DNA from: a virus
Lineage: Duplodnaviria > Heunggongvirae > Uroviricota > Caudoviricetes
Length of the DNA: 46,821 nucleotides
IMG/VR virus record: IMGVR_UViG_2718217787_000008
Reading direction: 5' to 3' (one strand)
Shown: piece by piece, positions 6,001 through 9,000 of the stretch
Layout of the letters: the number at the start of each line of letters is the position of its first letter
How positions within the stretch are numbered: position 1 is the stretch's first letter
Position numbers: made by a program

Positions 6001-9000
6001 TCCGGTGCGCTGTATCCGATGCGGAAATATCCGTCGGCATCGGTACAACAACAGGACCTGCAATGCCTGCCGGTGGATCCGCTCAGGAATGCGTGTTGCT
6101 GTTAATGCCACCGGTTTCCTCCTGAGCAGGTGCTGTTATCTGATACCCCGCTCTTTCTGCCAGCCGTATGAATGTATCCATGCTGGCAATCAGCTCGCCA
6201 TCGCGGACTTTGCAGACACCTGTGACTTGGCCATTTTCAATTATCATAACGATCTGCACTTTTTCGTGCACAACAGATACAGAGGATAAATTAGCCATCA
6301 GTTAATTCCTCCGCTGATATATTTTTCTTTCGCGTAATCAATAACCTCTTGAAAAAGGTGTCTATAATTAACTTTCCGGTTTCAGTCAGGTATTCAGTAT
6401 GTTGATTAATCCCGATAGCATTCTGGTATGCAGTGTGGATTTCGGTTTCACCCTCCACCCGGCCCAATTCACCACGGGTAATACCTTCGAAGCGTAACAG
6501 CAACTGGTTTATAAACTGTTCAGTTATTTCTATGGTCGTAATGTTCCCATCCGGAAGGTCAACAATAAGCAGATTACCACCTGTTTTACGTTTTATTCGA
6601 TGGAGTGCCGCAACAGCTATACGGCGACGATATGTATTAATGGGTTCATGTGTCATTTGTTATTTCCCGTATGCTTTCCTGAGAAACAGTATTGCAACTG
6701 ACCAGTATCCTGCATTAGCCATTAATAATGCGGTTTTATAAGCACTTCTGTTTTTCATGCATCACCACCATTTTCAGGTTGTGGAAATTCCCGACCAGAG
6801 GCCGTTATGTTTTTATGTGTGATTGTTTATTGAGTTTTCTTTATTCGTTGCGCAGTGTGTCGATATACTCGCAAGTCATTTCACAGGTTTTATTCATGGA
6901 GCGAATGAGGCAACATAAATAATCGTCTGTCTCTCCTGAATCAGGCGAATTCTTAAATATAAATTCAAGCATTGATGTATTCTCTTTTATTTGTGCTGCC
7001 ACTTCCTCAAGAATATTTAATGGAGTTATCATGTTCTTTGCTCCTTAAATGCATCGCATGCGCTTCTGGCGTATTGTTGTGCCAGTAAAAAGATATCATC
7101 CGAAAGTTCATCACATTCTTCATCACCGCAAGCCGAAATGATTAACCCCGCTTCAAGCAGTACGGCAATGTGATGAAAAACTGTCTCCGGTTCGTTGGTA
7201 AGGCCTTTGAACATTTTCATCTTATGCTTCCTCCTGATTTTGTTTATAAGCACCAGTCAGTAACCACATTGGATCGCAGCCAAGAATATTTGCCAATGGG
7301 ATAATTTTGTCGCAAGTAGGAATTGCTGAGTCATTTTCCCATAACGAAACAGCCTGAACAGTCACTCCAGCACCGCTGGCAATATGATGTTGTTGAAGAC
7401 TTGCTGATTTACGCGCTTGGAGAATACGTTGACCGAAAGATAATGCTGGGGAATTACTAGCGCTAACTTCTTTGGTAAATAAATCAACATTAGCGCCGGG
7501 AGCGCTACTATCTGTAAAGGAATTCATAGTTGAAGAGATGATGTCTTGTGCAACATCTAAGAGGTTGATGACGTCATGGTTTGAAGCGGTACCGCCTAAT
7601 AGTGCCGCTTGAGCACAAATCAACAGAGAGTTTACGGAATAAGAGTCATGTTTATCATTTAACATTACATTCACCTCACTTGTTTTTACTTGCTGAGGTG
7701 AATGTAGCGCTATGCGTTATTCTTGACAATAGCAAAATGCTAATATTTGCTGTTTTTTTTATAGTGCGTTGTATTTATTATTCATTTTCGTCTTTGTCGA
7801 TCGGCATTCTTGATGCTTTAACAGCCATTAGCTCATCAAGTAGTTTGTCAAAATTACGTTTCTTTTCAGATAACTCACTGATTATCCTGTCTTTTTCGCT
7901 TTCAGGCATTTGTCTGAATAACTCAATAAGTCGAGTCTCTCTTTTAGTTAGTTGCTGTTCATCAATAGTGGTCTCACCAGTCTTTTCCCTCATTTTAGCT
8001 AGATGCCATGGGGAATCCAGCAATGAGTGGGGGATGTCAAACCATCCTTCTGATAGGCTCAGTCGCCCCTCGAGTTTTCTAGCGAGAGCAGTTCCCATAT
8101 TCCTGCGCTTAGTCATTATTTGGCTTATAAGTGAGGGTGATATCTCACATTTTAACGCCAGATCTGTCTGGGTTAAGCCGCTGCGTTGGATTACCGTCTG
8201 TAGATTTTTTAAGCGAATATCTTTGATTTCCATGCTTGTCTCATTGTTAGCTAAATGCTTTACAGCGTATTGCTGTATTGTGATCTCATGTGCTAATGTT
8301 AGCACGTTGCTAATAACCAATACAGTATGGGGTTTTTTATGTCCAGTGTATTGCTCTCAATCAGAGGAGTCATGAGCGCGGATGAATGGAGGCGGCTGGC
8401 ACAGTTATCTGGGACTAGCGTTGCATACCTGAACCAGATGGCTCTGGGTTTTAGGCGCCCCTCAGTTGCAATGGCTGAAAGAATTGAGGAAGCGGTATCT
8501 AAAGTTTCACCAACCCTCAAATTATCTAAAGAGAGCCTCATTTTTTCTCCATTACGGAAAACAAATAGTTAGGTGTGACATGTCACAACAGTCAACCGTA
8601 ATGCCAGATCCGCGCTACTTCCAGAAGCTGCTGCCACGCAGCATATGGTATGACCCGATCAGCGGGGTTTATAACCTCATAGCGAAGCGGGAAGAGTAAG
8701 CCATGCAACAGGATTTAGTCAGGGTTGAAATGCCATCTAGGTACTGCCAGGCAGACGAAGAGTGGATTCAGCAGCAGTTACAGGGGCTGCCTCCGTCACT
8801 GAGACGGAAGGTCGCCCTGAAATATGCGGAGGTATACGAAATCACTTTTGACGCTGAGCCTGTTTCATTCCGCAAGGAGAACAGAGCAAGGCACGAAGCA
8901 AACACAAGGCTCCGCTTGTTTGTGAGAAATCAGGGCAGAGCTTTACAGGGGTATACAACTCAGCCGCCCCTGGCAGGAACGCAATCGCGCTCCTGATTGG

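What the first reader, a model, noticed from the sequence alone, without database searches (positions are those of the whole stretch)
7222..8587. Immunity region with two HTH proteins on the repressor side and palindromic operator candidates
Left of the cro-like gene are two minus-strand regulators: a cI-like protein with N-terminal HTH but no visible S24 autopeptidase domain (7778-8233), and a second protein whose HTH is C-terminal (7222-7674), in the position usually occupied by an N-type antiterminator. The cI/cro intergenic region carries a palindrome TGCTAATGTTAGCA (about 8291-8304) plus additional TGCTAA/TTAGCT half-sites (about 8246-8251 and 8307-8312). A perfect 14-bp palindrome TGTGACATGTCACA lies right after the cro-like stop (about 8574-8587). 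Absence of an S24 domain would imply induction through an antirepressor rather than RecA-mediated cleavage, which fits the antirepressor-like gene at 3638-4387.
Basis: partly seen in the sequence, partly recalled or inferred. Interest (0 to 1): 0.4.

Follow-up and report, generated by a model that had tools for sequence, protein, structure and literature searches.

The report
Prophage immunity switch with short repressor
This is the lysis/lysogeny control region of a lambda-like E. coli prophage whose repressor is a short, non-self-cleaving DicA/Gifsy type; this class is already known, so the finding is ordinary, but the operator sites, the cro gene and the likely antirepressor can now be placed more accurately.

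Summary
The 151-aa cI-like protein has an N-terminal HTH and no S24 domain. Its C-terminal helical domain is homologous to DicA, and the whole protein is distantly homologous to Gifsy-2 GtgR. It therefore belongs to the known class of short, non-cleavable repressors controlled by antirepressors.

Comparison with related loci moves the operators. The conserved unit is a 15-bp TTAGCA-N3-TGCTAA site, three at OR and two at OL. The perfect 14-bp palindrome after cro is no more than chance gives, is not conserved, and overlaps the ribosome-binding site and ATG of the next ORF.

The cro-like gene (8339-8572, 77 aa) is real and co-conserved with cI, but RefSeq does not annotate it.

A better antirepressor candidate than the ORF6N gene is a 71-aa protein (6083-6298) in the same family as Rem. 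Rem is the proven DicA antirepressor. Both candidates lie in the repressed pL operon and no LexA box is present, so the trigger for induction is unresolved.

The second HTH protein is an early DNA-binding protein and is not N-like. Its target is unknown.

Verdict: new member of a known kind, low to moderate interest.

The parts
7778..8233 (-). cI-like repressor, 151 aa. N-terminal XRE-type HTH plus a DicA-type C-terminal helical domain; no S24 domain.
   Evidence: Pfam gives HTH_3 only. phrog_5736 at E 6e-60. The NCBIfam DicA model hits residues 85-139 at E 3.6e-10. 40% identity to DicA residues 85-129. 24% identity over the full length to Gifsy-2 GtgR. The AF2 model is all-helical. The best PDB fold match is the SPC32H Rep, 5d50.
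8339..8572 (+). Cro-like (YdaS/Cro superfamily) gene, 77 aa. Not annotated in the RefSeq records.
   Evidence: Co-conserved with cI in loci with 82-99% and 41-43% identical cI. The upstream ATG and its SD are conserved in all loci, whereas the internal ATG at 8372 is Leu in the L014 group. Weak HTH_3 hit. IMG names it YdaS (Cro superfamily). No CDS is annotated here.
8299..8313 (.). Operator OR1, TTAGCA CGT TGCTAA. A perfect 6-3-6 site spanning the end of the -10 element and the predicted start of pR.
   Evidence: Arms are invariant in 10 aligned loci and only the central bases vary. It is the only 0-mismatch match in the window.
8262..8276 (.). Probable operator OR2, ACAGCG TAT TGCTGT. Its right arm overlaps the -35 of pR.
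   Evidence: The AGC...TGCT cores are conserved in the close group, and the right arm is conserved in all loci. It is weaker than OR1 and OR3, and its conservation may partly reflect the -35.
8247..8261 (.). Operator OR3, TTAGCT AAA TGCTTT, 14 bp upstream of the cI start codon.
   Evidence: TTAGC and TGCT are invariant in 10 loci, while the 3-4 central bases vary (TAAA, CAAA, AAAA, TTTA, AATG, ACTA).
8270..8299 (+). Predicted pR: -35 TTGCTG (8270-8275), 18-bp spacer, extended -10 TGcTAATGT (8291-8299).
   Evidence: Read from the alignment. The L014 group has TTGCTA-N17-TATAGT at the same place. TG and TAATGT are kept where the operator-like C is lost (L009, L024). Inference; there are no transcript data. 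The simple consensus scan did not call it.
7729..7743 (.). Operator OL1, ATAGCA AAA TGCTAA, abutting the -35 of pL.
   Evidence: One mismatch to the consensus. Invariant in 7 loci. Present as ATAGCA AAT TGCTAA in the L014 group.
7704..7718 (.). Probable operator OL2, GTAGCG CTA TGCGTT, lying over the spacer and -10 of pL, 25 bp centre to centre from OL1.
   Evidence: Arms are conserved and the central 3 bp vary (CTA, TTA, TGA, CTG, CCA). The L014 group has ATAGCT ATA TGGTAA at the same 25-bp spacing.
7701..7729 (-). Predicted pL: -35 TTGTCA (7729-7724), 17-bp spacer, -10 TACATT (7706-7701).
   Evidence: Found by the consensus scan. The L014 group has TTGATA-N17-TATATT at the equivalent position.
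7666..7706 (-). 13-bp hairpin in the sense RNA (arms 7706-7694 and 7678-7666, 15-nt loop). The 3' arm holds the SD of the HTH2 gene. The 5' arm coincides with the pL -10 element and discriminator.
   Evidence: Present in the MFE fold, z -3.6. 100% of 91 pair cells pair in 7 loci. Two independent C-to-U changes give G.U in this strand only. The loop varies in sequence and length. Its function is inferred.
7222..7665 (-). HTH2, the first gene of the pL operon, 147 aa. N-terminal helical hairpin, disordered linker, and a C-terminal P22 C2/434-type HTH.
   Evidence: Pfam HTH_3/HTH_19 at residues 81-143. phrog_4836. P22 C2 is the best PDB match by sequence and by fold. AF2 model. The family is mosaic in its HTH region.
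6083..6298 (-). Rem/FsoA-like small antirepressor candidate, 71 aa, in the pL operon.
   Evidence: phrog_340 at E 2e-23, the same family as E. coli Rem (E 4e-21) and the Fels-1 78-aa protein (E 1e-26). Syntenic with the Fels-1 gene. hhalign against Gifsy-2 GftA gives E 2.5e-4. Rem is a demonstrated DicA antirepressor (PMC10448788).
3638..4387 (-). ORF6N-domain protein annotated as antirepressor-like, distal in the pL operon.
   Evidence: Pfam ORF6N at E 3e-13. phrog_1726 'anti-repressor' at E 3e-70. No promoter or LexA box of its own was found.
8574..8587 (.). Perfect 14-bp palindrome TGTGACATGTCACA. Most likely fortuitous; it overlaps the SD and ATG (8580) of the 39-codon ORF at 8580-8699.
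   Evidence: Two such palindromes occur in the window. The left half, GAGGTGTGACATG, is conserved as an RBS plus start codon. The right half varies (ACACA, CCACA, GCGCC) in L011-L013.

Best explanation
The region is the immunity switch of a Fels-1/Stx-phage-like lambdoid prophage. It is built around a short, non-self-cleaving repressor of the DicA/GtgR class.

The repressor (7778-8233) probably binds as an oligomer to 15-bp TTAGCA-N3-TGCTAA operators. Three lie between cI and cro, over the -35 and the -10/start of pR. Two lie at pL, abutting the -35 and over the spacer/-10. Binding would shut off the divergent cro operon and the leftward early operon.

The cro-like protein (8339-8572) is the opposing regulator.

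The first pL gene encodes a second DNA-binding protein (HTH2) whose target is unknown. A 13-bp hairpin is made from the pL -10 region and the HTH2 ribosome-binding site. It probably blocks HTH2 translation from read-through cI transcripts but not from pL transcripts, which should start after its 5' arm.

Relief of repression is expected to come from protein antirepressors, not from RecA-stimulated cleavage. The prophage carries a Rem/FsoA-like 71-aa candidate (6083-6298) and an ORF6N protein. Both are inside the repressed pL operon and there is no LexA box. They can only reinforce a switch already thrown, or act on other prophages. The primary trigger would be an antirepressor supplied in trans, or stochastic cI/Cro switching.

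Shown here: the domain content, the homologies, the conservation pattern of the sites, and the gene order. Inferred: binding, promoter positions, the role of the hairpin, and the antirepressor-repressor pairing.
For: Repressor class: HTH only. The C-terminal domain is homologous to DicA. Full-length similarity to GtgR. The model is all-helical. The top PDB fold match is the antirepressor-controlled SPC32H Rep. No Ala-Gly or Cys-Gly.

Operators: the consensus with at most 1 mismatch is found only at 8299 and 7729, against 0.09 expected. The half-site hexamer is clustered. Arms are invariant and spacers variable across loci with 41-99% identical cI. The same 6-3-6 geometry, with a different sequence, appears around the 31%-identical homologue in L019.

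Cro: co-conserved with cI, and its start is defined.

pL.

Hairpin. A cassette with a different repressor has a strong terminator there instead.

Antirepressor candidate: with Rem function taken from PMC10448788 and FsoA/GftA from PMC3121763.

No LexA box.

Architecture identical to dicC-dicA-dicBp.
Against: - There are no binding or transcript data, so promoters and operator occupancy are inferred from sequence.
- pRM could not be located.
- OR2 and OL2 are degenerate.
- Operator centre-to-centre spacings at OR (15 and 37 bp) are not integral helical turns.
- The Rem-like gene is also present in relatives with other repressors: L028 with a 126-aa repressor, Fels-1 with a repressor Lemire et al. 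report to be cleaved, and phi467 with a 229-aa repressor whose domains I did not check. It is therefore not specifically paired with this cI and may target other prophages, as FsoA does.
- Similarity to GftA is weak (hhalign probability 43%).
- The LexA scan used a matrix built from sites recalled from memory.
- The hairpin shows only one-sided changes and no double compensatory changes.
Confidence: 0.65

Rival explanations
1. The 14-bp palindromes (TGCTAA-TG-TTAGCA and TGTGACATGTCACA) are the operators. The ORF6N protein at 3638-4387 is the cognate antirepressor that induces this prophage.
For: Both palindromes exist. TGCTAATG is conserved in the close relatives L011-L013 and L026. The ORF6N protein matches PHROG 'anti-repressor' families strongly.
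Against: The left arm becomes TGTTAA in L009 (cI 99% identical) and L024, and is absent in the L014 group. The matching third half-site at OL is not conserved. The right arm of the 14-bp palindrome is not conserved, and such palindromes occur at chance frequency. ORF6N lies deep in the repressed pL operon with no promoter or LexA box of its own.
Confidence: 0.1
2. Two overlapping site geometries are both used. The repressor binds the 6-3-6 sites. The Cro-like protein (or HTH2) binds the overlapping 6-2-6 site TGCTAA-TG-TTAGCA, so the two compete at pR.
For: The 6-2-6 site shares the TTAGCA arm with OR1 and is conserved in most close relatives. Overlapping operator use by two regulators is common in phage switches (general knowledge).
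Against: The C-to-T change in two loci keeps the -10 consensus but breaks the half-site. In L013 an inserted T changes the spacing of the OL counterpart. There is no independent evidence on the specificity of Cro.
Confidence: 0.1
3. HTH2 is the functional CII analogue (activator of lysogeny establishment) or a second repressor, not just an accessory early protein. No cII homologue follows cro here.
For: PHROG 4836 is labelled 'CII-like regulator'. No cII-like gene lies right of cro: the 39-aa and 97-aa ORFs have no regulatory domain. HTH2 is the first product of pL and has a bona fide operator-binding fold of P22 C2 type.
Against: The PHROG label is not an experimental result. The HTH recognition region is swapped among at least three types independently of cI and of the cro-proximal DNA. 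No co-varying site was found. Relatives in the L014 group lack HTH2 altogether.
Confidence: 0.2
4. The switch is a relic of a defective prophage, like Qin. The repressor only keeps toxic early genes silent, and no dedicated induction pathway exists.
For: No phage isolate in the phage collection carries this repressor full-length. The cassette is rare, in 19 of 5,426 complete E. coli genomes. An IS element abuts the integrase end. Relatives carry frameshifted tail genes. Qin shows the same architecture and antirepressor-independent spontaneous switching (PMC10448788).
Against: All regulatory ORFs are intact. cI and cro are conserved under apparent selection across Escherichia, Klebsiella, Enterobacter and Salmonella. 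Replication, lysis and head/tail genes are largely present.
Confidence: 0.15

Closest known systems
DicA / DicC / dicBp switch of the Qin cryptic prophage of E. coli K-12, with the Rem antirepressor
   Same: Same gene order: a cro-like gene divergent from a short repressor, followed on the same strand by the repressed early operon. The C-terminal domain of the repressor is homologous (40% identity over 45 aa). A small protein of the same PHROG as Rem is encoded in the prophage.
   Different: The N-terminal HTH is of another subtype (no DicA match there), so the operators differ. The DicA-like HTH is carried by HTH2 instead. The Rem-like gene sits in the pL operon, whereas rem lies on the dicC side near the Q-like gene. 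The first pL gene here is a 147-aa HTH protein rather than ydfA.
Gifsy-1/-2/-3 repressors (GfoR, GtgR, GfhR) with LexA-controlled antirepressors, and Fels-1 FsoA (Lemire et al. 2011, PMC3121763)
   Same: A repressor of about 140-150 aa with no cleavage domain. Full-length distant homology to GtgR, including the LF..LPE.EK motif. The small antirepressor homologue is syntenic with the Fels-1 left-operon gene. The Fels-1 early region is otherwise collinear with the window.
   Different: There is no dinI-antirepressor module and no LexA box. The antirepressor homologue is under the prophage's own repressor, as FsoA is. In Fels-1 the repressor is the cleavable type, whereas here it is not.
Salmonella phage SPC32H Rep-Ant (PDB 5d4z/5d50)
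   Same: Best solved-structure match to the repressor by sequence (E 4e-4) and by fold. A repressor inactivated by an antirepressor (PMC9986798, PMC7380047).
   Different: Only the N-terminal part, about 90 residues, aligns. Rep is 199 aa with a beta-containing tetramerisation domain, whereas the C-terminus here is predicted to be two helices.
Lambda cI / cro with OR1-3 and OL1-3
   Same: Divergent cI and cro, multiple palindromic operators overlapping pR and pL, mirror-image arrangement of OL and OR, and an OL1-OL2 spacing (25 bp) close to lambda's 23-24 bp (the lambda figure is from my own knowledge).
   Different: No S24 domain, 15-bp rather than 17-bp operators, no N or nut sites, no rex genes, and no cII right of cro.
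IS10 'fold-back inhibition' of transposase translation from read-through transcripts (own knowledge, Kleckner laboratory)
   Same: An upstream sequence present only in externally initiated transcripts pairs with the ribosome-binding site. The element's own promoter starts downstream of it.
   Different: Here it would insulate a phage early gene from cI read-through. This is untested and rests on sequence and one-sided covariation only.

Membership tests
Lambda CI / LexA-type self-cleaving repressors (Peptidase S24) | C-terminal S24 domain with a Ser/Lys dyad | tested here: not met
   No S24 hit in Pfam at E up to 0.1. Only about 85 residues follow the HTH, and they are predicted all-helical.
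Lambda CI / LexA-type self-cleaving repressors (Peptidase S24) | Ala-Gly (or Cys-Gly) cleavage site in the linker | tested here: not met
   No AG or CG dipeptide anywhere in the 151 residues.
DicA / GtgR / GfoR short non-cleavable prophage repressors | About 135-160 aa with an N-terminal XRE-type HTH | tested here: met
   151 aa, HTH_3 at residues 16-65.
DicA / GtgR / GfoR short non-cleavable prophage repressors | C-terminal helical domain homologous to DicA/GtgR (LF..LPE.E motif) | tested here: met
   The NCBIfam DicA model hits residues 85-139 at E 3.6e-10, which is below the whole-protein cutoff. BLASTP against DicA gives 40% over 45 aa. Against GtgR, 24% over 140 aa at E 7e-7. The motif is invariant in 19 homologues.
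DicA / GtgR / GfoR short non-cleavable prophage repressors | Sits between a divergent cro-like gene and a co-directional repressed early operon | tested here: met
   Gene order, compared with Qin and Gifsy-2.
DicA / GtgR / GfoR short non-cleavable prophage repressors | Inactivated by binding of a small antirepressor and not cleaved during SOS | not testable with these tools
   Needs pull-down or reporter assays and a western blot after mitomycin C.
Rem / FsoA / GftA small antirepressors (for the 71-aa ORF at 6083-6298) | Sequence family shared with an experimentally shown antirepressor | tested here: met
   phrog_340 at E 2e-23, with Rem at E 4e-21 in the same family. Profile against GftA gives E 2.5e-4, probability 43%.
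Rem / FsoA / GftA small antirepressors (for the 71-aa ORF at 6083-6298) | LexA-controlled promoter (Gifsy type) | tested here: not met
   No LexA-like site or promoter upstream. This resembles FsoA, which is controlled by its phage repressor (PMC3121763).
N-type antiterminators (for HTH2) | N-terminal arginine-rich RNA-binding motif, with nut (boxA/boxB) sites in the pL and pR leaders | tested here: not met
   No Arg in the first 30 residues. No boxA match within 1 mismatch (3 for the 13-mer) that lies in a leader. The fold is a DNA-binding HTH of P22 C2 type.
Cro/YdaS superfamily (for 8339-8572) | Small HTH protein divergent from the repressor and co-inherited with it | tested here: met
   Co-conserved in all cI-homologous loci down to 41-43% cI identity. 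HTH_3 scores 20.6 bits, below the cutoff, but 23.5 bits in the L014 homologue. IMG label YdaS.
SPC32H Rep | C-terminal beta/alpha tetramerisation and Ant-binding domain | tested here: inconclusive
   Only the N-terminal 77-92 residues superpose well. The full-length alignment has an rmsd of 16 A. The model's C-terminus is helical.

The most novel reading that the evidence does not exclude
The cassette could be a self-contained, LexA-independent latch. In it, a non-cleavable repressor represses its own Rem-like antirepressor, giving a double-negative loop. An RNA fold-back element insulates the early operon from cI read-through. The first early gene (HTH2) has an exchangeable recognition helix and an N-terminal helical hairpin. 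It would stand for an uncharacterised class of early regulators that replaces N/CII functions in Fels-1/Stx-like prophages.
Probability: 0.15. Interest if true: 0.5.

Novelty: new member of a known kind. Interest (0 to 1): 0.25.

Why it matters
It adds a rare immunity type to the known class of antirepressor-controlled prophage repressors; 19 of 5,426 complete E. coli genomes carry it. It gives testable operator and promoter coordinates. It recovers a cro gene that RefSeq annotation misses.

It also suggests that this Stx-phage-like prophage cannot sense SOS by itself. Its induction would then depend on antirepressors from co-resident prophages. That bears on how antibiotics mobilise prophages in pathogenic E. 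coli. None of this changes current concepts.

Tried and rejected
- Cryptic S24 domain: rejected.
- LexA boxes: CTGT-N8-ACAG and a position weight matrix built from recalled E. coli sites gave only weak hits. One lies inside int (1760) and one is near 46139. None is near a candidate antirepressor.
- The antirepressor gene in the lysis cassette of the near-identical STEC799 prophage is absent from this window.
- A scan of genome contigs with the cI alignment matched patterns, but none was confirmed.
- The perfect palindrome as a CRP-like or HTH2 site: its spacing is N4 rather than N6, it is not conserved, and it does not co-vary with the HTH2 type.
- A terminator-like hairpin at 7731-7752 with a T-run on the plus strand is not conserved in L024 and L026.
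- HTH2 as an antitoxin or defence component: only generic HTH matches in Pfam, NCBIfam and PADLOC.
- A search for repeated motifs that could be HTH2 sites in early intergenic regions found nothing convincing.
- PDB sequence searches for the Rem-like protein, Cro and the 97-aa ORF gave nothing.
- pRM could not be placed with confidence.
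Full report
**Context**

The window is a lambdoid prophage inserted at yecE. It is 99.8-100% identical over this region to prophages in E. coli O157 strain Al Ain, STEC799 and others. Its layout is that of an Stx phage without stx:
- integrase and excisionase;
- a long leftward early operon;
- cI and cro;
- helicase and primase;
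- a Q-like antiterminator;
- two tRNA-Arg genes;
- lysis, head and tail genes, and effector-like cargo.

The early region is collinear with Salmonella phage Fels-1. Against phage phi467, similarity stops at 7304 and resumes at 8727. The exchangeable immunity cassette is therefore about 7305-8726. This cassette is rare: 19 of 5,426 complete E. coli genomes carry it, all at 99% identity or more. No phage record holds the repressor full-length.

**Check of the observation**

- TGCTAATGTTAGCA is a 6-2-6 inverted repeat, not a perfect palindrome.
- TGTGACATGTCACA is a perfect palindrome.
- The half-site signal is real. TGCTAA/TTAGCA occurs nine times in the window, and four of these lie in the two regulatory gaps.
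- The perfect 14-mer is not statistically unusual. The window holds two such palindromes, and simple arithmetic expects about three.

**The repressor**

The 151-aa product of 7778-8233 has only an HTH_3 domain.
- Its C-terminal 55 residues match the NCBIfam DicA model at E 3.6e-10, and match DicA itself at 40% identity.
- The whole protein aligns with the Gifsy-2 repressor GtgR at 24% over 140 residues. The alignment includes the LF..LPE.EK motif, which is invariant in 19 family members.
- The AlphaFold model is entirely helical.
- The best solved-structure match by sequence and by fold is the antirepressor-controlled Rep of Salmonella phage SPC32H (identity of that entry from PMC9986798).
- There is no Ala-Gly or Cys-Gly.

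The protein belongs to the short non-cleavable class defined by Lemire et al. (PMC3121763). That paper names DicA and RacR as members.

**Cro**

RefSeq annotates nothing between cI and the 97-codon ORF. However, an HTH protein is encoded there, and it is co-conserved with cI in every homologous locus. It is 82-98% identical where cI is 82-99%, and 46-48% where cI is 41-43%. The conserved start is ATG 8339, which is preceded by a conserved Shine-Dalgarno sequence. The internal ATG at 8372 corresponds to a leucine in the distant group. Other sources annotate the protein, and IMG calls it YdaS/Cro superfamily.

**Operators**

I aligned the cI-cro gap from ten loci and the cI-HTH2 gap from seven loci, and also inspected the more distant L014 group. 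In all of them the same unit is conserved: TTAGCA-N3-TGCTAA. The arms are invariant and substitutions concentrate in the central bases, which is the usual signature of a dimer-binding operator.

| Site | Coordinates | Sequence | Note |
|---|---|---|---|
| OR1 | 8299-8313 | TTAGCA CGT TGCTAA | perfect |
| OR2 | 8262-8276 | ACAGCG TAT TGCTGT | probable |
| OR3 | 8247-8261 | TTAGCT AAA TGCTTT | |
| OL1 | 7729-7743 | ATAGCA AAA TGCTAA | |
| OL2 | 7704-7718 | GTAGCG CTA TGCGTT | probable |

- OL1 and OL2 are 25 bp apart centre to centre. The L014 group has the same spacing.
- With at most one mismatch, the consensus occurs only at OR1 and OL1. Shuffles give 0.09, and 0 of 100 shuffles reach two matches.
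- The 31%-identical homologue in L019 is flanked by 6-3-6 palindromes of a different sequence. The geometry therefore appears to be a family property.
It reads TGTTAA in L009 (cI 99% identical) and in L024, and it is absent in the L014 group. TG-n-TAATGT is kept throughout.
- Together with the conserved TTGCTR 17-18 bp upstream, this reads as pR with an extended -10. The L014 group has TTGCTA-N17-TATAGT at the same place.
- On this reading OR1 covers the end of the -10 and the start site, and OR2 covers the -35.
- pL is TTGTCA-N17-TACATT on the minus strand. The L014 group has TTGATA-N17-TATATT at the same position. OL1 abuts its -35 and OL2 lies over its spacer and -10.
- Promoter assignments are inferences. 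I could not place pRM.

**The palindrome after cro**

In relatives the left half, GAGGTGTGACATG, is conserved. It is the Shine-Dalgarno sequence and start codon of the next small ORF. The right half changes with the coding sequence (ACACA, CCACA, GCGCC). It also stays unchanged in L009, where the HTH2 recognition region is of another type. I conclude it is fortuitous.

**The pL leader**

A 13-bp stem (7706-7694 with 7678-7666) is part of the minimum-energy fold, with z = -3.6.
- It is conserved in all seven loci that carry this repressor cassette. All 91 pair cells pair.
- There are two independent C-to-U changes. They give G.U in the sense RNA but would give A.C on the other strand.
- The loop varies in sequence and length.
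- The 3' arm contains the ribosome-binding site of HTH2. The 5' arm coincides with the pL -10 and discriminator.
- pL transcripts should therefore lack the 5' arm, while read-through transcripts from cI would contain it.
- A cassette with a different repressor has a strong intrinsic terminator at this position instead.

I infer that the hairpin blocks HTH2 translation from read-through transcripts, in the manner of fold-back inhibition in IS10 (own knowledge). There are no double compensatory changes, so this remains a hypothesis.

**Antirepression**

No convincing LexA box exists anywhere in the window. There is also no dinI-antirepressor module of the Gifsy type.

The ORF6N protein matches PHROG 'anti-repressor' families. 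A more specific candidate is the 71-aa ORF at 6083-6298.
- It falls in phrog_340, together with E. coli Rem and the Fels-1 78-aa left-operon protein.
- It is syntenic with that Fels-1 gene.
- A profile of the family aligns with the Gifsy-2 antirepressor GftA over the shared NG.V...DT..E..RE.G motif, at E 2.5e-4 and probability 43%.
- Rem derepresses the DicA-controlled promoter 165-fold (PMC10448788).
- FsoA is encoded in the Fels-1 left operon, is controlled by the Fels-1 repressor, and acts on the Gifsy-2 repressor in trans (PMC3121763). I could not confirm from the paper that the 78-aa ORF is FsoA itself; its position and its similarity to GftA suggest that it is.

Both candidates here are inside the pL operon, and neither has a promoter of its own. 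The Rem-like gene also occurs in relatives with other repressors. These proteins therefore cannot be the primary damage sensor for this prophage. They could lock in a switch once repression weakens, or they could act on co-resident prophages.

**HTH2**

The 147-aa product of 7222-7665 has three parts: a predicted N-terminal helical hairpin, a disordered linker, and a C-terminal five-helix HTH. The HTH is closest to the DNA-binding domains of P22 C2 and 434, and it also matches the N-terminal half of DicA.
- It has no arginine-rich motif, and no boxA lies in the leaders. It shares only its position with N.
- The family is internally mosaic. At least three versions of the recognition region are combined with several N-terminal domains and one conserved C-terminal tail.
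- In L009 cI is 99% identical but HTH2 only 63%.
- The L014 group lacks HTH2.
- I found no site that co-varies with it, and no toxin-antitoxin or defence signature.
- The PHROG label 'CII-like regulator' is untested. It is worth noting, because no cII homologue follows cro.

**Comparison and verdict**

In function and architecture this is the dicC-dicA-dicBp / Gifsy arrangement, with a different HTH specificity and with the antirepressor homologue placed in the repressed early operon.

The membership features I could test for the DicA/GtgR class are met. Those for the S24 class and for N are not met. Binding by an antirepressor, which is the functional hallmark of the class, cannot be tested here.

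This is a new member of a known kind.
- the operator geometry and coordinates;
- the start, reality and missing annotation of cro;
- the Rem-like candidate;
- the dismissal of the 14-bp palindrome;
- the point that neither antirepressor candidate can be the SOS sensor.

Interest is low to moderate.

Noticed in passing
window 8339-8572 (+): The cro-like gene has no CDS in the RefSeq (PGAP) annotation of identical prophages, although GenBank and IMG records call it. The gap between cI and the next CDS is left empty.
   Followed up: yes
window 1-888 (+): An IS3-family (IS1203-like) transposase ORF abuts the integrase end of the prophage. The near-identical STEC799 prophage has intact yecE (DUF72) there instead.
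   Followed up: partly
window 20015-20073 versus L003 19372-20427: The lysis cassette of this window lacks a block of about 1 kb that STEC799 has. That block includes a 'phage antirepressor N-terminal domain' gene between the lysozyme and Rz genes.
   Followed up: partly
window 6291-6656 (-): PGAP marks the equivalent gene as a frameshifted pseudogene. The window has an intact 121-codon ORF (phrog_1737) that is 49% identical to Fels-1 STM0898.3n and overlaps the start of the Rem-like gene.
   Followed up: no
window 3638-4387 and 6083-6298: PHROG 4792 ('anti-repressor', 268 positions) is matched by the ORF6N protein over its N-terminal part (positions 8-124). It is matched by the 71-aa Rem-like protein over positions 199-238. 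Some large antirepressors may therefore be fusions of an ORF6N domain and a Rem-like domain.
   Followed up: no
window 46139-46158: The second-best LexA-like site in the window is AGCTGTTTGGATATTCAGGT (CTG-N10-CAG, 13.6 bits, at the bottom of the range of real sites). It lies about 180 bp upstream of the large DUF4765 cargo gene on the minus strand.
   Followed up: no
window 15233-15247: TTAGCTAAATGATGA repeats the first 11 bases of operator OR3. It lies in the gap between the start of the minus-strand 314-codon ORF (14156-15100) and the tRNA-Arg genes. It could be a weak repressor site at a moron gene, or it could be chance.
   Followed up: no
window 8315-8325: AATACAG, just downstream of OR1 in the predicted pR leader, is invariant in the close relatives, and ACAG is kept in the distant group. 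No function is assigned.
   Followed up: no
window 6710-6733 and 7731-7761 (+): Two hairpins followed by T-runs on the plus strand, antisense to the early left operon. The second overlaps OL1 and is not conserved in L024 and L026.
   Followed up: partly
window 3072-3641 (-): A 189-aa early-operon protein with a weak match to the middle of the DNA polymerase III beta clamp (TIGR00663, E 8e-4, far below the cutoff).
   Followed up: no
window 5893-6111 (-): A 72-codon ORF annotated 'ParE family toxin-like' overlaps the 3' end of the Rem-like gene by 29 nt. No antitoxin partner was identified.
   Followed up: no
L026/L027 (Raoultella), positions about 750-1930: In these loci the same cI/cro pair is followed on the cro side by a KilA-N protein and a DUF4222 protein rather than by replication genes. 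The cassette therefore also occurs in differently organised elements.
   Followed up: no
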